A stretch of 64,000 nucleotides of DNA from an uncultured Chlamydiales bacterium. Lineage in GTDB: Bacteria > Chlamydiota > Chlamydiia > Chlamydiales > FEN-1388. Under the pieces are notes generated by a model. It was given only the letters and a program-made list of their open reading frames with translations. It searched no databases and had not been told where the DNA came from. Shown one piece after another: positions 7,398-35,864 of the stretch. The stretch lies in contig CAWGYH010000005.1 in NCBI GenBank assembly GCA_963826935.1, positions 388,981 through 452,980 on the forward strand, written 5' to 3'. Position numbers and translations under genes: made by a program. The stretch's first letter is position 1. The number at the start of each line of letters is the position of its first letter.

Positions 7398-9209
7398 ATG
7401 GATGAAAATCGATTTTTGGGTGACTATAGACTGATAAAGCACATAGGCCACGGCTCTATGGGTTCAAGTTTTGTAGCAGAGCAGCGCTTTACTAAGAAAA
7501 AATATGTCCTCAAAGTGCTCCCTGAAGAGCTTTCTCAGGATCGAGCTTTTTTACAGCGCTTTGAAGAAGAGATTGCCATCATATCGCAGCTCGATCATCC
7601 CAATATCGTCAAAATCTACAATGTATCTTTTGCTCAGGGTGTCTACTTTTTAGTCTGCGACTGCATTGTAGACGATATGGGCGAGACTACAAACTTAAGT
7701 GAATTTTTCCGCCAGCGCGACAAAAAGCTTTCGCAGACTGAAGTGCTCTGCATTGCACAGCAGGTAGCATCGGCCCTAGACTATGGCCACACCTGTAAAG
7801 TGGCCCATCGCAACCTCAAGCTTAACAACATCGTTATTGGAGCAAGGCAGCAAGTTCCCGGCCCCCAAATTCAGGTAAAGATTAGCGACTGGGGTCTTTC
7901 CAAAATTATAGGCCTTGGTGCATGCCTCACACGGTCTTTTAAGGGCATGGCAGAAGCGCTTGGCATCGCAGCTGTCATCCAGAACCGCTTTCCTCAGCCG
8001 GCTGTAGACACCGCAAAGCTTATACCGCTCCATCAGTCGCTTATTCAAAACTTTGCCTTTTTGGCTCCCGAGCAAAAAAGGCTCGACATGCAATCAAGCG
8101 ATAGGACAGACACCTATAGCTTCGGCGTGCTTTTATACTATCTCCTTATGGGAGAGTACCCTGAAGGCTCATTTTTATACCCCTCATGCCGCTACGAAGA
8201 GTGCGCTATAGATTGGGATATGCTATTAAAAGAGTGTTTAAACCCAACCCCTCAGCTTCGTCCCTATCTTCTTGAAGAGCTTTTAGCAAAGGCGACAGTA
8301 TCAAAATTTACTGCTGCAGAGGCTCCCCCGCAGCCGCAACCGGCTCCTGTAGAAGAAAAGGTCCTCGTCGCAGCAGGAGTTCAAGAATCTGTTACTCAGA
8401 CAGAGCCGCAAAAACGCTCTCCTTGGGTACGCGAAGAGCGCATTGTCAAAGAATATGCTCCTGAAAAGCGGGAGCTGTCGCATCTGCAGCCGATTCATTC
8501 AGAAATGGTATCGATTCAAGGCGGCTACTACGAGCGCGGAAGCAATGCGGGATGCCGCGATGAGATGCCTCGTCATAAAGTTGAAGTGGCGGCCTTTGCT
8601 ATCGACATCCATCCTGTCACAAACGAGCAGTTTATGCGCTTTTTAGAGGTGATAGGCGGCGAAAAAGATAGCCAAAACCACGACATCATCCGCCTTCGCG
8701 AGTCGCGCATCAAAAAAAGTGCTGGCCGCATCAGCATAGAACCGGGCTACAACAAACACCCTGTCGTCGGCGTTACCTGGTATGGCGCTGTTGCCTATGC
8801 GCAGTGGATAGGAAAGCGCCTTCCAACAGAAGCTGAGTGGGAAGTTGCCTGCACCGGCAAGCTAGAACACCCTACCTACCCAACTGGCGAAGATATAGAA
8901 AAAACCGAAGCCAACTTCTTCAGCTCCGACACCACCGCAGTGATGAGCTATCCCCCAAATGCCTATGGCCTCTACGACATGGCCGGCAACGTCTACGAAT
9001 GGTGCCAAGACTGGTATGAATACAATTTCTACGAATCCTCTGCCCAAGAGCCCGACAACCCCAAGGGCCCACTCCAAGGCGTCTACCGCGTCCTCCGCGG
9101 CGGTTGCTGGAAAAGCCTAAAAGAGGACCTTCGCACTTCAAAGCGTCATCGCAATAATCCCGGAGTGGCCAACGGCACCTACGGTTTTCGCTGCGCAAGC
9201 GACGCCTAA
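7398..9209 (+). CDS. pkn1: Ser/Thr protein kinase fused to a C-terminal FGE-sulfatase (SUMF1-like) domain, Pkn1 architecture
   Basis: Kinase motifs: Gly loop IGHGSMGSSF, Lys in YVLKVL, catalytic loop AHRNLKLNN (Asn where HRD Asp is expected), DWG in place of DFG, and LAPEQ. C-terminal FGE domain: HPVTNEQF, HPVVGVTWYGAVAYAQW, RLPTEAEWE, YGLYDMAGNVYEWCQDWY, RVLRGG.W and YGFRCA. Confidence 0.85.
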   Translation: MDENRFLGDYRLIKHIGHGSMGSSFVAEQRFTKKKYVLKVLPEELSQDRAFLQRFEEEIAIISQLDHPNIVKIYNVSFAQGVYFLVCDCIVDDMGETTNLSEFFRQRDKKLSQTEVLCIAQQVASALDYGHTCKVAHRNLKLNNIVIGARQQVPGPQIQVKISDWGLSKIIGLGACLTRSFKGMAEALGIAAVIQNRFPQPAVDTAKLIPLHQSLIQNFAFLAPEQKRLDMQSSDRTDTYSFGVLLYYLLMGEYPEGSFLYPSCRYEECAIDWDMLLKECLNPTPQLRPYLLEELLAKATVSKFTAAEAPPQPQPAPVEEKVLVAAGVQESVTQTEPQKRSPWVREERIVKEYAPEKRELSHLQPIHSEMVSIQGGYYERGSNAGCRDEMPRHKVEVAAFAIDIHPVTNEQFMRFLEVIGGEKDSQNHDIIRLRESRIKKSAGRISIEPGYNKHPVVGVTWYGAVAYAQWIGKRLPTEAEWEVACTGKLEHPTYPTGEDIEKTEANFFSSDTTAVMSYPPNAYGLYDMAGNVYEWCQDWYEYNFYESSAQEPDNPKGPLQGVYRVLRGGCWKSLKEDLRTSKRHRNNPGVANGTYGFRCASDA

Positions 9210-12653: not shown

Positions 12654-15194
12654 ATGACTACTTCCTATACTGAAGACGAAATGATTAGTCACTCGTAACG
12701 TCGAAGAAGAGTGAAGGAAAGCTACCTGCGCTATTCGATGTCGGTCATCATCTCTCGCGCACTTCCCGATGTGCGCGATGGGCTAAAGCCGTCCCAGCGA
12801 CGCATTCTTTTTGCGATGCGGCAGCTGAACCTTGGCCCTGGCGGCAAAACACCGTAAGTGCGCCAAAATTTCCGGCGATACGTCCGGTGATTACCACCCG
12901 CACGGCGAGATGGTGATCTACCCCACGCTTGTGCGTATGGCTCAAGACTGGGCGATGCGCTATACGCTTGTCGATGGCCAAGGAAACTTTGGCTCTATTG
13001 ACGGCGACCCACCAGCTGCTATGCGTTATACTGAAGCGCGCCTACCCATGCCTGCCATGCAGCTGATGGAAGATCTCGACAAAGAACTGTCGATATACGT
13101 TCCCAACTATGACGAGACAAAAAAAGAGCCTACGGTATTTCCTGCAAAATTCCCAAACCTGCTCTGCAATGGCTCCTCAGGTATTGCTGTCGGCATGGCG
13201 ACAAACATCCCTCCGCACAACTTCAACGAACTTATTAAAGCAACGCATGCTTCTCCTGGATGACCCCGCTCACTACTGTCGACGAGATCATGAAAGTGAT
13301 GCCGGGCCCTGACTTTCCGACAGGCGGCATCATCTGCGGCTATCGCGGCATCAAAGAGGCCTTTCACACAGGCCGGGGCAAGCTTACCCTTCGCGGCGTA
13401 ATACATGTAGAAGAGATTGATAATAGCGACCGCCAGCGTCTTGTGATTACGAGATTCCCTATAACGTCAACAAGGCATCGCTTATCGAGCAAATCGCCGA
13501 ACTGCATCCAGGAGAAGGTAATCACAGGCATATCTGACCTTCGCGACGAATCTGACAAAGATGGCTTGCGGATTGTCGTCGAGCTGAAGAAAGGTGAGAT
13601 CCCAGAAGTCATCATCAACCAGCTCTATAAGCATTGCGACCTTGAAGTGACCTTTGGCTGCAACATGCTGGCCCTTGACAAGGGCATGCCGCGCATGATG
13701 AACATCAAGCAGATGATCGTTGCCTGGATCGAGCACCGTATCGAGGTGATCCGCCGCCGTACGCGCTTTGAGCTGGCTAAAGCTGAAGCTCGCGCACACA
13801 TTCTTGAAGGCTACTTAAAGGCCATCGACCACCTCGAAGAGGTGGTTCGCCTCATCCGCGCAAGCTCATCTCGCGATGAAGCCAAAACCGGTCTTATGCA
13901 GACGTTCGAGTTTACCGAGCGCCAGGCAACTGCTATCCTAGACCTGCGCCTCTACCAACTTACCGGCCTTGAGCGCGACAAGATCACGAACGAATATAAC
14001 GCTCTTCTTGAAAAGATCCGCTACTATAAGGAGATCTTGGGCTCCGAGCAGAAGGTAAAAGACCTTATCAAAGAAGAACTTGTTGAAATTCAAAGATTTA
14101 ACAAGTCAGAGCGCAGAACCCAGATCATCGCAGCCGAAGCTGATATGGATATGGAAGATCTCATCCCGAACGAAAAAGTGGTGATTACGATCTCAAATGA
14201 CGACTACATCAAGCGCATGAGCACAAACCTCTTCCGCGAACAGCGAAGAGGCGGACAGGGGATTGCCGGCGTCGAGCTGAAAAAGCAAGATGACGCCATC
14301 AAGAGCGTCCACGTCGCATCAACGCATGACTATTTACTTGTCTTTACATCGCTTGGAAGGCTCTACTGGCTCAAAGTGTGGCAGATTCCGGATACGGGCA
14401 GAAGATCAAAGGGTAAACCCCTCATCAACCTGCTTGAAGATTTAAAACCGGGTGAAAAGATTGCGACGATCGTCCAGGTGTCAGAGTTTAGGCCGGATGT
14501 CTGCCTCTTCCTCTCTACTAAGCAGGGCGTGGTGAAAAAGATTTCCTTAGATGAGTTTTCAAACCCTCGCCGCAAGGGAATCATCGCCCTATCTATCGAC
14601 GAAGGGGACGAGCTTATCGCTGCCCGCCATGTGATGGCAGAGCAGGAGGTAATGCTCTTTACGAAAAACGGCATGGCAGTGCGCTTTGACGAAGCAGAAG
14701 TGCGCGCTATGGGCCGCACAGCACGCGGCGTTCGCGGCGTAACGCTTCGCGGCGATAATGACCGCGTCGTGGGCTGCGAAGTTGTTACACCAACTGACGT
14801 TATCTTAGTTGTATGCGAAAATGGCTTTGGCAAAAAGTCGCAGGTAGATGAGTTTAGAAAGTCGCACCGCGGCGGCGTGGGCGTTCGCTCCATAGTCACA
14901 AGCGACCGTAACGGCAACGTAGCCGGCGCACTTGCTGTGACCGACGCTGATGCTCTCCTTATGGTATCACAAGGCGGCCAGACGATCCGCATACGCCTAA
15001 GCGACGTGCGCATAATGGGCAGAAACACCCAGGGCGTTCGCCTAGCCAACCTGAAAGAGGACACGCTTGTTGCCATCCAAAAAATAGCTCGCATCGAAGG
15101 CGAAGAGGCTGTTGAAGCGCAAAATGGCGAGGATGTGCTGGCAGTGCCTGAAGCAGAACTTGAATCTGAATCTGTTAACGAGTCGGAAGAATGA
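12654..15194 (+). pseudogene. gyrA: DNA gyrase subunit A; the first ~850 nt carry about seven frame changes and the remaining ~560 codons are intact
   Basis: From ATG 12654, the motifs [56 protein letters not shown] (catalytic Tyr), [18 protein letters not shown] and PGPDFPTGG lie in different frames. From ~13505 a single ORF runs to 15194, with beta-pinwheel repeats and an acidic tail. Confidence 0.9.
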
Positions 15195-16264: not shown

Positions 16265-17215
16265 AAATAGCATTTTTCAGTTCCGAAGAGGCTGTGAAAA
16301 ATGCCACGCCCGAAGGGTGTGGTGGCAAATAGCCCAGGCCGCCGAAGGCGTCCTGGGTATCTAGGCACAATAAAAATGCACGCCCGAGAGGCTGTGAAAA
16401 AATACGTTTTCTTCGGCCGCAGGTCTTTGGAGTGCGGCGATTCTTCGCCGCTTTTGCTTCGGCATACACGTTAATCACAAGATCGCCCAAGTTCACAAAG
16501 CACCTCTATCGATTCTTGTAGATCTGTTTTGTACGCCTTAAGCGATAAGGAAGCAAAGGTGCGTGGTCGAAAATGAAAGCGACAAAAAATTGTCGCACTC
16601 CAAAGAGCTGCGCTCGAAGCTACATTTTTTCACAGCCTCCGAAGGGTGTGCTGGAATCGATTGCTTTTCCAGCACACCCTTCGGGCGTGCATTTTTTACA
16701 AATATTAGGGCCCCAGAGCACCTCCCTCGGGTCGGTGATCTGGACTAATCGCCACCACACCCTTCGGGCGTGGCATTTTTCACAGCTCCTCCGGAACCAA
16801 TGGTGTCAACTTAAGAAAATTTATATTAGTTCTGAAAAGGTTGTGAAATATCATCTCTCCCTTCGGGAGAGAACTCGAGTTTGGACATTTGAAGGTTCGA
16901 CGGACACCGTTCTTGTATGCTTAACGTACATATTGGTGATCCATTCGGTCTCGGTCTCGGTCACGGTCTCCAGTGTACGAAGTATGCTTAGTTAAAGGCG
17001 AAGCTTCGCCTGCCTAGCGTCTACAGTCGAGACCGAGACCGTGACCGAGACCGAGACCGAGACCGAACGGTTTACCTCCAAGATGTTATGCGCAAGCTAC
17101 AAATGTCCAAACTCGAGCTCTCTCCCTTCGGGAGAGAAAAAACAGCGGCCAGAGCTGCTATAAAATTCTTTAAGTTGACACCATTGCCTCCGGAACTGAT
17201 GGCGCGGTCATAGCC
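16265..17215. repeat. ~1-kb intergenic block made entirely of nested palindromic elements (includes P250 copy C at 16390-16637 and a ~420-bp palindrome at ~16790-17215 with (GGTCTC)n/(GAGACC)n arms)
   Basis: gtgaaaaatgccacgcccgaagggtgtggtggc...ctaatcgccaccacacccttcgggcgtggcatttttcac brackets gcacgcccgagagg-P250-...cacccttcgggcgtgc. Then ctccggaaccaatggtgtcaacttaagaaaat is mirrored by attctttaagttgacaccattgcctccggaac, with inner pairs tctctcccttcgggagaga...gtttggacatttg / caaatgtccaaac...tctctcccttcgggagaga and ggtctcggtctcggtcacggtctc / gagaccgagaccgtgaccgagacc. Confidence 0.9.
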
Positions 17216-32198: not shown

Positions 32199-32403
32199 GG
32201 TTTAAGAGTGCCACATAAGCACATGAAAGTCAACTTTGAGGTAGCTTGAATATTAGAGCTCCTTTAGGATGGTTAAGAAATTGGTGTCGAGATTAGTGTC
32301 GGGTCTAATATTCTGACATCCACAAATTATGCTTCACAATATTGCCTGAGGACGCTTTTCACTTCCTCTCATGTATCGTTTTTAAAGTTTAAGAAAATGC
32401 CCA

Positions 32404-32433
32404 TTGACAATTTAGTGCATTATGCACTAAAAG
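32404..32433 (+). promoter_or_regulatory. Putative promoter with an embedded perfect 19-bp palindromic operator
   Basis: TTGACA (32404-32409), an 18-nt spacer, then TAAAAG (32428-32433). TTAGTGCAT-T-ATGCACTAA (32412-32430) is a perfect 9+1+9 inverted repeat filling the spacer. Confidence 0.5.
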
Positions 32434-32437
32434 TGTT

Positions 32438-32532
32438 GGTGTTGGGCCGAAGTATCTTGGTTCTCGAATATCACTCGGGTGTCTCCGACATTTGTTGGGG
32501 CCCTACCAAGATACAGTTATACGCCCAACAAT
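32438..32532 (+). ncRNA. Y-RNA-like ncRNA candidate 1
   Basis: The terminal stem GTTGGGC (32441-47) pairs with GCCCAAC (32523-29). An asymmetric internal loop (CGAA vs AGTTATAC) follows. The inner stem GTATCTTGGT (32452-61) pairs with ACCAAGATAC (32505-14). A 43-nt internal module closes the structure. The 5' end TGGGCCGAAG resembles the vertebrate Y RNA 5' end GGCUGGUCCGAAG (from memory). It lies directly upstream of rsr. Confidence 0.6.
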
Positions 32533-32545
32533 TATTATGCGTTTC

Positions 32546-32640
32546 GGCTGGGCCGGAACAGATGGTTTATCGGAATTTGAAAGCTCCATCCAATGGAGCT
32601 CAAGTCAACCATTTGTAACTACTATGCCCAGCCATTTTTT
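32546..32640 (+). ncRNA. Y-RNA-like ncRNA candidate 2
   Basis: The terminal stem GGCTGGGC (32546-53) pairs with GCCCAGCC (32626-33) and is followed by A+T6. An internal loop (CGGAA vs TAACTACTAT) follows. The inner stem CAGATGGTT (32559-67) pairs with AACCATTTG (32607-15). An internal hairpin agctccat-ccaa-tggagct is present. The architecture matches candidate 1. Confidence 0.6.
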
Positions 32641-32654
32641 AAGGAGCGTTAATT

Positions 32655-34262
32655 ATGAGCTATACTAAAATTTCAAGCCTATTAGAACATCTAAAATGGC
32701 TCAAGCCACAACCTACCCCCTTGCCAAATCAGATAGCCAATAACGCGGGTGGCTATTATTACAAAATCGATGAATGGGACCAATTAGACCGTTTTCTTAT
32801 TCTTGGAAGTGAATTGGGAACATACTATGTAGCACCTGTAAAATTGACATTAGATAATACACAAGTGATTCAAAACTTGTTACGTATAGATGGAATAAGA
32901 GTTGTAAATAGAATAGTTGAAGTTAGCGCCGCCAATCGAGCACCAAAAAACGATTCAGCGCTTTTTGCTCTAGCCTTAGCTGCCTCTTGCGAAGATCTTA
33001 AAACGCGACAGGCTGCACTATTAGCGCTTCCCAAGGTAGCACGTACAGGAACCTATCTTTTACAATTTGCAGAATATATAAATAATTTACGTGGATGGGG
33101 CCGATCTTTACGCAAGGCGATAGCTAATTGGTTTCTTAATATGCCAGTAGAAGACCTTAGCTTACAGGCTGTTAAATATTATAAACGCGAAGGGTGGTCA
33201 TTATGTGATTTATTGCGTCTATCGCACCCTAAGTGCAAAGAGGATGAAGAGAGACGCGCACTATTTCAATGGATAGTAAAACCAGAAGATGCAACTGCTA
33301 TCAAAAACGCAAGAAGCTTACGTTTAATCGATGGAAAGTACTGTGCCAAAGATGCAACCACAAATCTTGAGATGGCAAATATTGTGCGAAAATATTCACT
33401 ACCTCGAGAAGCGCTGCCCACACCAGCTCTTAACAGCCCAGAAGTATGGGATGCGCTGCTTGTTGACATGCCAATGACAGCAATGATTCGCAATCTTGGC
33501 AAAATGACTAAAGTTGGCTTATTGCAACCTTTTGGCGCGGCGTCTGATTATGTAGCAAAGAGATTACATGACAAAGAACAACTACGCTATGCGCGAATAA
33601 GCCCTTTCCAGCTTTTGCTAGCTCTTCGAGTATATGCTCGTGGTTCTGGGGAGCTAGGCTCGTTGCAATGGACACCAGTAGCCTCTATAGTGCAAGCTCT
33701 TGATAAAGCGTTTGAATCCTCATTTGCTGATGTCAAACCAACAAACAAGCGAATACTTGTAGGTATTGACGTCTCTGGTTCAATGTGTTCTAGTACATGT
33801 GCAGGATCTCCAATTCTTCGCCCTGTTGAAGCTGCAGCTGCAGTGGCCACATTTTTTGTTCGCACCGAAACAAGAGCGCATGTTATGGCATTTGATACTC
33901 AAGCGTATGAGTTTGCCATCACACCAAATCAGCGGCTTGATGATATTACAGAAGCATGTAAACGTTGGGGAGGAGGGACAAATCTTGCCTTGCCAATTAC
34001 CTATGCCATTGAACGCCGTTTAGAAGTCGATGCTTTTGTCATCTTGACTGACAATGAAACTTGGGCTGGCAATCGACATGCTGTTCAGGCTTTAGATGAG
34101 TATCGTCAGCGTATCAACCCCGAAGTAAAGCTTGTAGTAATGGCAACAGCTGCAAATGAAGGTGCGGTATGCGATCCACGTGATCCTCTCTCGTTGGGCA
34201 TTGCTGGATTTGATGCAGCTGCACCCCAAGTTGTTTTAGAGTTCATAAAGGGATCTTGCTAA
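32655..34262 (+). CDS. rsr: Ro60 ortholog (TROVE domain + C-terminal vWA)
   Basis: RBS aaggag. The N-terminal region NNAGGYYYKIDEWDQLDRFLILGSE.GTYY and ...VSAANRAPKNDSALFALALAA are TROVE-like. The vWA MIDAS motif is VGIDVSGSM, followed later by GGGTN...ILTDNETW. Confidence 0.85.
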   Translation: MSYTKISSLLEHLKWLKPQPTPLPNQIANNAGGYYYKIDEWDQLDRFLILGSELGTYYVAPVKLTLDNTQVIQNLLRIDGIRVVNRIVEVSAANRAPKNDSALFALALAASCEDLKTRQAALLALPKVARTGTYLLQFAEYINNLRGWGRSLRKAIANWFLNMPVEDLSLQAVKYYKREGWSLCDLLRLSHPKCKEDEERRALFQWIVKPEDATAIKNARSLRLIDGKYCAKDATTNLEMANIVRKYSLPREALPTPALNSPEVWDALLVDMPMTAMIRNLGKMTKVGLLQPFGAASDYVAKRLHDKEQLRYARISPFQLLLALRVYARGSGELGSLQWTPVASIVQALDKAFESSFADVKPTNKRILVGIDVSGSMCSSTCAGSPILRPVEAAAAVATFFVRTETRAHVMAFDTQAYEFAITPNQRLDDITEACKRWGGGTNLALPITYAIERRLEVDAFVILTDNETWAGNRHAVQALDEYRQRINPEVKLVVMATAANEGAVCDPRDPLSLGIAGFDAAAPQVVLEFIKGSC

Positions 34263-34267
34263 TAGGA

Positions 34268-34501
34268 ATGACCCCTGATGAACTTAAGATAATCGGTGAG
34301 AAATTATTTGGATCTTGGGGTTGGCAAACAAAATTAGCCAAAGCCTTACGAGTTGACGGCAGCACTGTGCGTCGCTGGATTTCTGGCACAACAACGATTC
34401 CTGGGCCTGTAACCGTGGCCCTTGAGTTACTTTTACAAAGGGAAGAGTATGACACCAAAAGAGTTTCATCAACTACTTCAGACATCTCAAGTGAGGCATA
34501 A
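34268..34501 (+). CDS. Small XRE-like helix-turn-helix protein
   Basis: MTPDELKIIGEKLFGSWGWQTKLAKALRVDGSTVRRWISGTTTIPGPVTVALELL is a typical HTH (..aLgvs..TVrRWesG...ip.p). It overlaps the rsr stop region and the predicted rtcB start. Confidence 0.55.
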   Translation: MTPDELKIIGEKLFGSWGWQTKLAKALRVDGSTVRRWISGTTTIPGPVTVALELLLQREEYDTKRVSSTTSDISSEA

Positions 34502-35864
34502 GGAGTTTGAAGACGCTTGGAAGGTATATAAAAGTGAAGGCCCTGAAGCTGCGATCACTTTTGTAAAAAACATCCAAGAGGCTCTTGCTACCTTACGAAA
34601 TACTGCACGCTTACATGAAACACCTGTTTCATATCAGGTCTATGGCCGTGAGTGCATCGATGAAGGCGCCATTAAACAAATGAACGGAGCAATGCGCCTT
34701 CCTGTTGCCCTTGCAGGATCTTTGATGCCTGATGCGCATCACGGATATGGATTACCTATAGGGGGAGTGTTGGCAACAGAAAATGCCGTTGTCCCGTACG
34801 CTGTTGGAGTGGATATAGCTTGTCGTATGATGCTTACTGTCTACCCCGCTGAAGGAAAAATGCTCCAAATGCAAAATTCACCTGAATTTCAGCATTTAAA
34901 GAAAGCTTTGATTGACAATACGCTGTTTGGAGCAGGTGGTAATGGTGTTCATGAGGGTAAGATAGATCACCCCATTCTTGATGAGTCACACTGGAAAAGT
35001 ACTCCCTTACTTTGGTCTCTACGCTTTACAGCAACTCGTCAAATAGGGACAAGTGGAACCGGCAATCACTTTGTGGAGTGGGGGGAACTTGATATAGTAG
35101 AAGAGAATAATCCTCTAAAACTAAAGATAGGAAAATACCTAGCCTTGCTGTCACACAGTGGATCCCGCGGGGTGGGGTTCAAGATAGCAGATTACTATAC
35201 AAAACTTGCAATGAGTCAATTATCCACTCTTGATGATGAGGTAAAGCACCTTGCATGGTTAGGATTAGATACAGAAGCCGGGCAAGAATATTGGGAAGCT
35301 ATGGATCTTGCGGGTCGATTTGCCTCAGCAAATCACCACGTCATCCATGAACGCATCGCTCGTGCAGCTGGATTAACTCCAATTGCCACCGTAGAAAATC
35401 ACCATAATTTCGCATGGCGTGAAAAGATTATGGTAAACGATTGTGAGGTAGAAGCCATAGTCCACCGAAAGGGAGCAACACCTGCAGGGCAAGGAGTTCT
35501 GGGGGTGATTCCTGGAACAATGGCAGACCTTGGGTATGTAGTAGTTGGCAAGGGCTGTAAAGAATCATTACAGTCAGCATCTCATGGCTCGGGTCGCAAG
35601 ATGAGCCGTACTAATGCAATAAAAACAATTACGCAAGAGCAGCATAACGAATATCTTGCAAAGCACGGAATCACGCTCATTGGCGGCGGCCTAGATGAAT
35701 CTCCAGAAGCCTATAAACCAATTACAAAGGTGATCGAAGCTCAACGTGAACTTGTTGATATCATAGGCAGTTTCCAGCCGCGCATAGTTCGCATGGCCGA
35801 TGATTCAGCAAAAAGATCTTTTAAGCCAGCGCCAGCAGGTGTTGTAGATGCTGAAGGGGATTAG
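34449..35864 (+). CDS. rtcB: RNA 3'-phosphate/2',3'-cyclic-phosphate to 5'-OH ligase RtcB
   Basis: MPDAHHGYGLPIGGV, GVDIACRM, GTSGTGNHF, SHSGSRGVG, NHHNFAW, HRKGATP, IPG.M and SASHGSGR motifs. The start is placed at ATG 34449 (RBS gggaagag); the track ORF starts at 34422. Confidence 0.9.
   Translation: MTPKEFHQLLQTSQVRHKEFEDAWKVYKSEGPEAAITFVKNIQEALATLRNTARLHETPVSYQVYGRECIDEGAIKQMNGAMRLPVALAGSLMPDAHHGYGLPIGGVLATENAVVPYAVGVDIACRMMLTVYPAEGKMLQMQNSPEFQHLKKALIDNTLFGAGGNGVHEGKIDHPILDESHWKSTPLLWSLRFTATRQIGTSGTGNHFVEWGELDIVEENNPLKLKIGKYLALLSHSGSRGVGFKIADYYTKLAMSQLSTLDDEVKHLAWLGLDTEAGQEYWEAMDLAGRFASANHHVIHERIARAAGLTPIATVENHHNFAWREKIMVNDCEVEAIVHRKGATPAGQGVLGVIPGTMADLGYVVVGKGCKESLQSASHGSGRKMSRTNAIKTITQEQHNEYLAKHGITLIGGGLDESPEAYKPITKVIEAQRELVDIIGSFQPRIVRMADDSAKRSFKPAPAGVVDAEGD

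What the first reader, a model, noticed from the sequence alone, without database searches (positions are those of the whole stretch)
32438..32640. Two tandem Y-RNA-like genes immediately upstream of the Ro60 ortholog
Both candidates (32438-32532 and 32546-32640) have the same architecture. A 7-8 bp terminal stem is formed by the 5' and 3' ends (GTTGGGC/GCCCAAC and GGCTGGGC/GCCCAGCC). Next comes an asymmetric internal loop (CGAA or CGGAA opposite 8-10 nt). Then comes a 9-10 bp inner stem and a ~40-nt apical module. Their 5' ends (GGCTGGGCCGGAA, GTTGGGCCGAAG) resemble the conserved GGCUGGUCCGAAG start of vertebrate Y RNAs (from memory), which is the Ro60-binding stem. Candidate 2 ends in a T6 tract. 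Bacterial rsr genes are known to be accompanied by Y RNAs (Deinococcus, Salmonella YrlA/B). I am not aware of such RNAs being described for chlamydia-like organisms. The track ORF 32397-32618 over this region is most likely spurious.
Basis: partly seen in the sequence, partly recalled or inferred. Interest (0 to 1): 0.8.

Follow-up and report, generated by a model that had tools for sequence, protein, structure and literature searches.

The report
Two bacterial Y RNAs before rsr
Two small structured RNA genes just upstream of a Ro60 (Rsr) gene in a chlamydia-like bacterium are real members of the known bacterial Y RNA family. This extends a known RNA-protein partnership to a new lineage and is not a new kind of system.

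Summary

I built a covariance model only from short elements next to rsr in 12 other taxa. In the 64-kb window, both strands, it finds exactly these two elements (E about 1e-4 each). In 80 rsr loci plus the window it gives 88 hits, all on the rsr strand. Of these, 82 lie upstream of rsr (median 321 nt), and 16 of 18 base pairs show compensatory changes. It finds nothing in 169 kb of control dnaA loci.

The downstream gene is a strong Ro60/Rsr ortholog (PDB 2NVO, E 1e-109), followed by rtcB.

Neither RNA has the tRNA-like domain of YrlA. Rfam RF02553 and RF00019 give no hit. Both hit the nematode Y-homolog family RF01656 below threshold. They are therefore the short YrlB/Yrn2-like kind.

New context: both RNAs are transcribed from a sigma70-like promoter that carries a conserved palindrome, TAGTGCA-N3-TGCACTA. 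The palindrome co-occurs almost perfectly with a small uncharacterised Cro-like HTH gene just after rsr, which is a likely autorepressor.

Verdict: a new member of a known kind, of moderate interest. Expression and Rsr binding remain untested.

The parts
32404..32409 (+). -35 box TTGACA of the promoter that drives the Y RNAs
   Evidence: A TTGAC/TTGCA box sits at the same offset upstream of the palindrome in 20+ related loci. The generic promoter scan did not call this promoter, because its -10 is weak.
32413..32429 (+). Palindromic operator TAGTGCA-TTA-TGCACTA, lying in the promoter spacer and overlapping the -10
   Evidence: There is one exact copy in the window. The same palindrome is present in 24 of the 27 rsr loci that encode the small HTH, and absent from 132 loci without that HTH. 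An R1 Y RNA hit follows 8-12 nt later in 22 of 34 cases; the gap in the window is 9 nt.
32428..32433 (+). Putative -10 box TAAAAG. The predicted transcription start is about 32439-32441, which is the 5' end of Y1.
   Evidence: This is inferred from the 18-nt spacing to the -35 box and from TAAATT/TAATTT/TAAATA at the same place in relatives. It has not been shown experimentally.
32440..32530 (+). Y RNA 1 (about 91 nt). It has an 8-bp terminal stem, a CGAA/8-nt internal loop, a 10-bp inner stem and a 43-nt apical module. The motifs are GGGCCGAAG and GGUUCUCG.
   Evidence: Fold. R1 hit at 34.9 bits, E 8.4e-5. It carries an exact GNCGAAN0-1G motif (GCCGAAG). Its 5' part resembles the first Y RNAs of L001 and L008.
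32546..32640 (+). Y RNA 2 (88 nt plus A-U6). It is a long hairpin with an 8-bp terminal stem, a CGGA/9-nt loop, a 10-bp inner stem and an apical 8-bp hairpin with a CCA loop. The terminal stem followed by T6 (32635-32640) looks like a terminator.
   Evidence: Fold z-score -5.8. R1 hit at 33.9 bits, E 1.3e-4. RF01656 at 25 bits. A T run of 5 or more after the stem recurs in 15 of 101 family members, all in the HTH-type clade, including the Parachlamydia MAG L241.
32641..32646 (+). Shine-Dalgarno AAGGAG of rsr
   Evidence: Read directly from the sequence. It lies 8 nt before the ATG at 32655.
32655..34262 (+). rsr, the Ro60 ortholog (535 aa; TROVE plus vWA_Ro60 domains)
   Evidence: Pfam PF05731 and PF25045. 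PDB matches: 2NVO, D. radiodurans Rsr, E 1e-109; 1YVP, Xenopus Ro60, E 1e-98; 9NEN, human RO60.
34268..34501 (+). Small Cro/YdaS-like HTH protein (77 aa); the inferred repressor of the operator
   Evidence: Weak Pfam hits to YdaS_toxin, HTH_3 and P22_Cro. It is conserved directly after rsr in 27 of 160 loci and co-occurs with the palindrome. Its homologs are annotated as hypothetical.
34449..35864 (+). rtcB RNA ligase gene. The likely start is ATG 34449; the listed ORF starts at TTG 34422.
   Evidence: Pfam PF01139, E 2e-76. The Parachlamydiales relatives L004 and L241 carry a 69%-identical rtcB in the same cassette, in a different order.

Best explanation
The two elements are genes for bacterial Y RNAs, the small non-coding RNA partners of the ring-shaped Ro60 ortholog Rsr encoded 15 nt downstream.

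The likely sequence of events is as follows.
1. A sigma70-type promoter (-35 at 32404, -10 at 32428) starts transcription at about 32440, which is the first base of the Y1 terminal stem.
2. The transcript runs through Y1 and Y2.
3. The GC-rich terminal stem of Y2 followed by U6 stops some of the polymerases. That would give a defined 3' end and an excess of Y RNA.
4. Read-through yields the rsr-HTH-rtcB mRNA. No other promoter fits in the 15 nt before rsr.
5. Y1 is released from the precursor by processing.
6. Each RNA then binds Rsr through the conserved basal module: the terminal stem, the GGGCCGRA strand with its internal loop, and the GGUUAYCG inner stem.
7. The variable apical modules are free to gate the Rsr cavity or to tether a partner enzyme. 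That partner is PNPase in Deinococcus and Salmonella.
8. The promoter is probably repressed by the small Cro-like HTH protein encoded after rsr, which would bind the palindrome TAGTGCA-N3-TGCACTA that overlaps the -10.

Shown here: the structure, family membership, covariation, linkage to rsr, and the co-occurrence of the operator with the HTH gene.

Inferred: expression, the transcription start site, termination and processing, Rsr binding, repression, and the partner enzyme.
For: - Fold and thermodynamic z-scores.
- Model R1, built from 12 elements of other taxa, shows covariation that no shuffle reaches (0 of 500).
- R1 finds only these two sites in 128 kb of searched window sequence.
- R1 gives 88 hits in 80 rsr loci plus the window. 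All 88 are on the rsr strand. 82 lie upstream, 78 of them within 1 kb, and none lies inside rsr.
- Of all pair cells, 93.7% are paired, against 36-46% when the partners are slid. 16 of 18 pairs show compensatory changes.
- R1 gives 0 hits at E<=1 in 169 kb of dnaA control loci.
- G-U pairs and stronger folding on the plus strand give the orientation.
- The Rsr ortholog is strong.
- Other Chlamydiota (Parachlamydiales L004, Parachlamydia sp. L241) and Legionella donaldsonii (L244) have the same operator, Y RNA and gene layout.
- HTH and palindrome contingency over 160 loci: both 24, HTH only 3, palindrome only 1, neither 132.
- The gap between operator and Y RNA is fixed at 8-12 nt.
- Chen et al. 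2014 (PMC4201824) define the family. Y RNAs lie within 4 kb of rsr on the same strand and carry the GNCGAAN0-1G motif. There are several per species, and they are processed from a precursor upstream of rsr in M. smegmatis.
Against: - There are no expression or binding data for this organism.
- Neither RNA reaches an Rfam gathering score.
- Y2 carries GCCGGAAC, not the exact GNCGAAN0-1G motif. Only 28 of 88 family members have the exact motif, and 28 have GCCGGAG.
- There is no tRNA-like (YrlA) Y RNA in the window. Chen et al. found one in every species they characterised.
- The apical modules could not be tested by covariation, because no Rsr closer than 70% identity was found.
- The terminator scan did not call Y2, because its 'loop' far exceeds 8 nt.
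- The -10 box is weak.
Confidence: 0.85

Rival explanations
1. The elements act mainly in cis, as a structured leader or attenuator of the rsr-HTH-rtcB mRNA, and not as free small RNAs. The Y2 stem plus U6 would be a regulated terminator, and Rsr binding to the leader would feed back on its own expression.
For: Y2 ends 15 nt before the rsr start codon, with no room for a promoter in between. A terminal stem plus T run directly before a gene recurs in L241 (before both rtcB and rsr), L004 and L244.
Against: This reading is not exclusive of the Y RNA reading. Known bacterial Y RNAs are cut out of such precursors (PMC4201824). In many loci the same RNA lies hundreds of nt from rsr, or downstream of it. 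A predicted pairing that would hide the Shine-Dalgarno sequence is not significant (13.8% of shuffles do as well) and is not conserved.
Confidence: 0.1
2. The elements are decayed relics of Y RNA genes. For example, Y1 could be a YrlA that has lost its tRNA-like domain. They would no longer be expressed or functional.
For: No T-loop or D-loop is present. The Y1 segment UCACUCGGGUGUCUCCGAC resembles the stretch that leads into the T-arm in YrlA-type relatives such as L015 2776-2907. The R1 scores of 34-35 bits are in the lower half of the family.
Against: Both basal modules are fully paired and carry the conserved motifs. The promoter, operator, rsr, HTH and rtcB are all intact. Short Y RNAs without a tRNA-like domain make up most family members: 47 of 88 are 80 nt or shorter.
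Confidence: 0.04
3. The region encodes the 73-aa protein of ORF 32397-32618, and the hairpins are incidental.
For: An ATG-initiated ORF spans the region.
Against: The ORF has no Pfam hit and no tblastn match in 160 rsr loci, although the underlying RNA motifs are conserved there. Its variation is compensatory in the stems, not synonymous. The ORF starts upstream of the conserved -35 box.
Confidence: 0.01

Closest known systems
Short bacterial Y RNAs: S. Typhimurium YrlB, M. smegmatis YrlB, D. radiodurans Yrn2 (Chen et al. 2013, 2014; PMC4201824)
   Same: They are encoded next to rsr on the same strand, with several per locus. The 5' and 3' ends pair into a stem that carries the GNCGAA-type motif. 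They lack a full tRNA-like domain. [quoted passage not shown] In M. smegmatis they also lie upstream of rsr and are processed from a single precursor.
   Different: Sequence similarity is confined to the basal module. Chen et al. could not find YrlB relatives outside Salmonella by BLAST. In the window the RNAs are the first products of a sigma70-like promoter that carries a Cro-like operator, whereas in Salmonella they lie within a sigma54/RtcR operon. Y2 ends in a U6 tract.
YrlA (Rfam RF02553), the tRNA-mimicking bacterial Y RNA
   Same: The basal Rsr-binding module is the same (GGGCCGRA ... GGUUAUCG ... CAUGCCC), as are the genomic context and the association with rtcB. YrlA-type members sit beside short members in many of the related loci.
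   Different: The window RNAs have no T-arm, D-arm or acceptor-like stem. RF02553 gives no hit at E<=10 in the window, while it scores 46 bits on the control locus L001.
Metazoan Y RNAs (RF00019) and nematode stem-bulge RNAs (RF01656)
   Same: The basal stem has a GGNCCGRAG 5' strand, an internal loop and a GGUUAUC inner stem. The partner protein is Ro60. The 3' end has an oligo-U tail. Both window RNAs give their best Rfam match to RF01656.
   Different: The scores are below the gathering threshold (25.0 and 20.7 bits against 38), and RF00019 gives no hit. Metazoan Y RNAs are Pol III transcripts of stand-alone genes. The window RNAs are the 5' part of a bacterial operon transcript.
The rsr-yrlBA-rtcBA RNA repair operon of Salmonella (RtcR/sigma54; PMC7790460, PMC4987338)
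   Same: It combines Rsr, Y RNAs and the RtcB ligase in one transcription unit.
   Different: The gene order differs: here the Y RNAs come first. The window has no rtcA and no rtcR next to the cassette. Control appears to come from a small Cro-like HTH and a 17-bp palindrome in a sigma70-type promoter, not from RtcR and sigma54.

Membership tests
Bacterial Y RNA (Chen et al. 2014) | Encoded within about 4 kb of the Ro60/Rsr gene, on the same strand | tested here: met
   Y1 and Y2 end 124 nt and 15-21 nt before the rsr ATG, on the plus strand. Across the family, 88 of 88 hits are on the rsr strand.
Bacterial Y RNA (Chen et al. 2014) | GNCGAAN0-1G motif near the 5' end | tested here: met
   Y1 has GCCGAAG at 32446-32452, an exact match. 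Y2 has GCCGGAAC, a variant. Among the 88 family members, 28 have the exact motif and 28 have GCCGGAG.
Bacterial Y RNA (Chen et al. 2014) | The 5' and 3' ends pair into a basal stem with an internal loop, and the structure is conserved | tested here: met
   Of all pair cells, 93.7% are paired; 16 of 18 pairs have compensatory changes; 0 of 500 shuffles reach the observed values.
Bacterial Y RNA (Chen et al. 2014) | Bound by Rsr and dependent on it for stable accumulation | not testable with these tools
   This needs Rsr immunoprecipitation and Northern blots or RNA-seq.
YrlA (Rfam RF02553) | tRNA-like domain (T-arm, D-arm, acceptor-like stem) | tested here: not met
   RF02553 gives no hit at E<=10. 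The window has no T-loop/D-loop motif pair and no tRNA gene. The positive control L001 scores 46 bits.
YrlB/Yrn2-type short Y RNA | [quoted passage not shown] | tested here: inconclusive
   Y2 fits: it has an apical 8-bp stem with a CCA loop, and the centroid fold agrees with the MFE fold. The apical part of Y1 is poorly defined (MFE frequency 5%). No close relatives are available for covariation.
Metazoan Y RNA (Rfam RF00019) | Match to the family covariance model | tested here: not met
   There is no match at E<=10 in 32200-32700.
Nematode sbRNA ceN72-3_ceN74-2 (Rfam RF01656) | Score at or above the gathering threshold of 38 bits | tested here: not met
   The scores are 25.0 bits (E 0.0068) and 20.7 bits (E 0.094), over the full model length. 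This is a resemblance, not membership.
Intrinsic terminator | GC-rich stem directly followed by a U run | tested here: inconclusive
   The Y2 terminal stem has 8 bp, 7 of them G-C, and is followed by A and U6. The stem encloses 72 nt, so the consensus scan does not call it. The feature recurs in relatives.

The most novel reading that the evidence does not exclude
The Y RNA-rsr-HTH(-rtcB) unit may be a self-regulated cassette that moves horizontally and is shared by amoeba-associated and other bacteria: Chlamydiota, Legionella, and Rhodospirillales- or Odyssella-like alphaproteobacteria.

In this reading a previously uncharacterised Cro-like repressor controls promoters that fire directly into Y RNAs. 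The Y RNAs double as leaky terminators that set the ratio of Y RNA to Rsr or RtcB. In this chlamydial lineage Rsr would work with short Y RNAs only and without any tRNA mimic, which would be an exception to the pattern reported for characterised species.
Probability: 0.3. Interest if true: 0.55.

Novelty: new member of a known kind. Interest (0 to 1): 0.4.

Why it matters
Bacterial Y RNAs are known to accompany Rsr in hundreds of species, so finding them here is expected and not surprising. The value lies in four details.
- They extend the Ro60-Y RNA partnership to chlamydia-like organisms, for which I found no published description.
- The short, non-tRNA-like Y RNAs were reported to have 'eluded bioinformatic discovery'. 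They can in fact be captured by a simple covariance model of the basal module, which gave 88 hits in 80 rsr loci plus the window.
- This locus appears to lack a YrlA-type tRNA mimic.
- A conserved operator and a small Cro-like regulator suggest a control circuit for the Rsr/RtcB RNA repair genes that differs from the RtcR/sigma54 circuit and can be tested.

Tried and rejected
- Rfam at gathering thresholds over the whole window gave nothing. This silence says little, because rsr loci used as positive controls also gave only tRNA hits at gathering.
- The full-leader fold predicts that 32539-32545 pairs with the rsr Shine-Dalgarno region 32643-32649. I rejected this. 13.8% of shuffled flanks pair as well, and L004, L241, L244 and L007 show no equivalent.
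- I looked for closer Rsr relatives, to test covariation in the apical modules of Y1 and Y2. Genome and metagenome scans found nothing above 70% identity.
- I looked for a YrlA elsewhere in the window, using ARAGORN, T-loop/D-loop motifs, R1 and RF02553. None was found.
- A GC-content anomaly as a sign of recent transfer: the cassette is only mildly richer in GC than its flanks (0.41-0.455 against 0.34-0.42). This is not conclusive.
- The supplementary species tables of Chen 2014 and the Burroughs and Aravind 2016 survey of RNA repair systems could not be read. Prior mention of chlamydial Y RNAs or of the HTH partner therefore cannot be excluded.
- The generic sigma70 scan did not call the conserved promoter. 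It proposed a weaker site at 32313-32340 that is not conserved.

Full report
**What is there.**
The region 32400-32660 holds two adjacent elements on the plus strand.
- Y1 (32440-32530) has an 8-bp terminal stem (UGUUGGGC/GCCCAACA). Its asymmetric internal loop is CGAA opposite AGUUAUAC. A 10-bp inner stem (GUAUCUUGGU/ACCAAGAUAC) and a 43-nt apical part follow.
- Y2 (32546-32633) has an 8-bp terminal stem (GGCUGGGC/GCCCAGCC) and an internal loop of CGGA opposite 9 nt. It also has a 10-bp inner stem and an apical 8-bp hairpin with a CCA loop. An A and T6 (32635-32640) follow the terminal stem.
- The rsr Shine-Dalgarno AAGGAG (32641) and ATG (32655) come next.

The minimum-free-energy folds reproduce this architecture. 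The z-scores are -3.7 and -5.8, and 0 of 200 shuffles fold as well. The reverse strand folds less well.

**Surroundings.**
- ORF 32655-34262 is a Ro60/Rsr ortholog. It has the TROVE and vWA_Ro60 domains. It matches D. radiodurans Rsr 2NVO (E 1e-109), Xenopus Ro60 1YVP and human RO60 9NEN.
- A 77-aa ORF with a weak Cro/YdaS/HTH_3 signature follows at 34268-34501.
- rtcB follows (34449-35864), and then a ceramidase-like membrane protein.
- Upstream, on the other strand, lies a TPR/Sel1 protein.
- The housekeeping genes in the window match chlamydial-type models. YidC matches PRK01001 above its cutoff, and DnaA matches PRK12422. The nearest DnaA loci are a Chlamydiae MAG (49% identity) and a Simkaniaceae MAG (44%). 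The host is therefore a chlamydia-like organism with no close sequenced representative in the collections.

**Is it more than chance, and what family is it?**
Rfam at gathering thresholds finds nothing in the window. At permissive thresholds both elements give their best match, over the full model length, to RF01656. That is a nematode stem-bulge RNA family, the nematode homologs of Y RNAs. The scores of 25.0 and 20.7 bits are below the gathering score of 38. RF00019 (Y_RNA) and RF02553 (YrlA) do not match.

I fetched 80 rsr loci from reference genomes. A plain motif scan showed GGGCCGRA-N7-8-GGTTAYCG recurring beside rsr on its strand. From 12 short elements of other taxa I built alignment A1, which contains no window sequence. 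The stated two-helix structure showed clear covariation on it: 92.6% of cells paired, and 0 of 500 shuffles reached the observed score. I then built covariance model R1 from A1.

Results with R1:
- In the whole window, both strands, R1 finds exactly two sites, 32439-32531 and 32545-32634 (E 8.4e-5 and 1.3e-4).
- Over the 80 loci plus the window it gives 88 hits at E<=0.01, all on the rsr strand.
- 82 hits are upstream of rsr (median distance 321 nt, 78 within 1 kb), 6 are downstream and none is inside the gene. 49 of the 81 sources have at least one hit, and many have 2-4.
- On the 88-sequence alignment, 93.7% of pair cells are paired. That falls to 36-46% when the partners are slid by 1-3 columns. 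16 of 18 pairs carry compensatory changes.
- A negative control of 169 kb of dnaA loci gives no hit at E<=1.
- The consensus is nnnnCGGGCCGnAG-nnnnTGGGTTATCG...CCCAnnnnCACnnACATGCCCGnnnn.

This is the bacterial Y RNA family of Chen et al. 2014 (PMC4201824). Its members lie within 4 kb of rsr on the same strand, carry a GNCGAAN0-1G motif near the 5' end, and occur several per species.

**Which kind of Y RNA?**
Related loci contain three size classes:
- minimal hairpins of 60-80 nt (47 of 88);
- intermediate forms, some with a lone T-arm (24 of 88);
- forms of 120-145 nt with T-loop and D-loop motifs, which is YrlA (15 of 88).

RF02553 recognises the long form in control locus L001 at 46 bits. 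The window has no tRNA gene, no T-loop/D-loop pair and no RF02553 match. Y1 and Y2 are therefore of the short YrlB/Yrn2-like kind. [quoted passage not shown] Y1 is less well defined and may be a reduced derivative of a longer form. Its 5' half resembles the first Y RNA of L001 and L008.

The apical modules could not be tested. The closest Rsr found in genomes or metagenomes is only 70% identical.

**How the RNAs are made (inferred).**
Just upstream of Y1 lies TTGACA (32404), an 18-nt spacer and TAAAAG (32428). A perfect palindrome, TAGTGCA-TTA-TGCACTA (32413-32429), fills the spacer and overlaps the -10.
- The same promoter and palindrome occur in relatives from several phyla.
- Of 34 palindromes, 22 are followed by an R1 hit after 8-12 nt; the gap in the window is 9 nt. 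Most of the other palindromes are followed by weaker Y-like sequences at the same spacing. The Y RNA 5' end is therefore most likely the transcription start.
- The palindrome co-occurs with the small HTH gene that follows rsr. Over 160 rsr loci the counts are: both 24, HTH only 3, palindrome only 1, neither 132. Of the three HTH-only loci, two are cut short upstream and one has a palindrome with one mismatch. The palindrome-only contig ends just after rsr.
- Homologs of the HTH are annotated as hypothetical. They include proteins from Legionella donaldsonii and a Parachlamydia MAG.
- Because the site overlaps the -10, I infer that the HTH is an autorepressor. This is not shown.

The Y2 terminal stem plus U6 looks like a leaky terminator. 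Only 15 nt separate it from the rsr ATG, so rsr must be read through from the same promoter. T runs after the terminal stem recur in 15 of 101 family members, all in this HTH-type clade. In the Parachlamydia MAG L241 a Y RNA plus T7 precedes rtcB, and another precedes rsr.

**How the RNAs act (by homology).**
In Xenopus and Deinococcus, Ro60/Rsr binds the conserved basal helix of Y RNA, mainly its 5' strand. The rest of the RNA gates the ring or tethers PNPase (PMC4201824 and the work cited there). The window RNAs conserve that basal module and vary elsewhere, so the same division of labour is the most likely reading. Which partner the apical modules recruit is unknown.

**Rivals.**
- A purely cis-acting leader or attenuator is possible, but it does not exclude the Y RNA reading. 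A predicted helix that would hide the Shine-Dalgarno sequence is neither significant nor conserved.
- Decayed relics are unlikely, because the stems and motifs are intact and so is the rest of the cassette.
- The overlapping 73-aa ORF has no homologs and starts upstream of the -35 box.

**Novelty.**
This is a new member of a known kind. I found no paper that links Y RNA or TROVE proteins with Chlamydiae. I could not read the species tables of Chen 2014 or the 2016 comparative survey of RNA repair systems.

Three points would interest a specialist:
- the apparent absence of a tRNA-mimic Y RNA at this locus;
- the Cro-like regulator and operator, in place of RtcR/sigma54;
- the scatter of the closest Rsr relatives (61-70% identity) across Alphaproteobacteria, Bdellovibrionales, Parachlamydiales and Gammaproteobacteria, which suggests horizontal movement of the cassette. 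The GC profile does not settle this.

Noticed in passing
window 32404-32433 and 34268-34501: A conserved 17-bp palindrome, TAGTGCA-N3-TGCACTA, sits inside a sigma70-like promoter. It co-occurs almost perfectly with a small uncharacterised Cro/YdaS-like HTH gene just after rsr: both 24, HTH only 3, palindrome only 1, neither 132. This is probably a dedicated autorepressor of Y RNA/rsr/rtcB cassettes.
   Followed up: yes
window 12832-15194: gyrA is split between two frames near 13260. Residues 53-188 of the profile are in ORF 12832-13263 and residues 196-799 are in ORF 13260-15194. This is a frameshift, either real or a sequencing error.
   Followed up: partly
window 16280-17195: A stretch of about 0.9 kb is made of nested inverted repeats, with arms of 26-66 nt that are 82-100% complementary. 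It includes GACCGA-type short repeats. It is apparently non-coding, and its nature is unknown.
   Followed up: no
L078 (Chondromyces apiculatus) 600-2850 and 5300-7150: rsr is flanked by more than 25 tRNA genes, interleaved with Y-like GGGCCGGA...GGTTATC elements. This is a large mixed array of tRNAs and Y RNAs.
   Followed up: no
L242/L243 5001-7700: An HTH homolog sits beside a short TROVE-only protein (337 aa, no vWA domain) and an HSP70/MreB-like gene. An R1 hit (7582-7673, minus strand) lies upstream of the TROVE gene on its strand. This is a variant architecture.
   Followed up: no
L001 2760-2890 and the equivalent places in L002, L003, L005, L006, L161, L162: A further conserved Y-like element (GCGGGTCGAAGAAGTTCGTTTATCG...ATATCCGCA) and a following hairpin lie between the YrlA-type RNA and rsr. 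R1 does not detect them.
   Followed up: no
L241 (Parachlamydia sp. MAG) 1663-3369; L004 823-3001: In Parachlamydiales the same parts are arranged as operator, Y RNA plus T7, rtcB, (degenerate) operator, Y RNA plus T7, rsr, HTH. Each gene is therefore preceded by its own Y RNA and terminator-like unit.
   Followed up: partly
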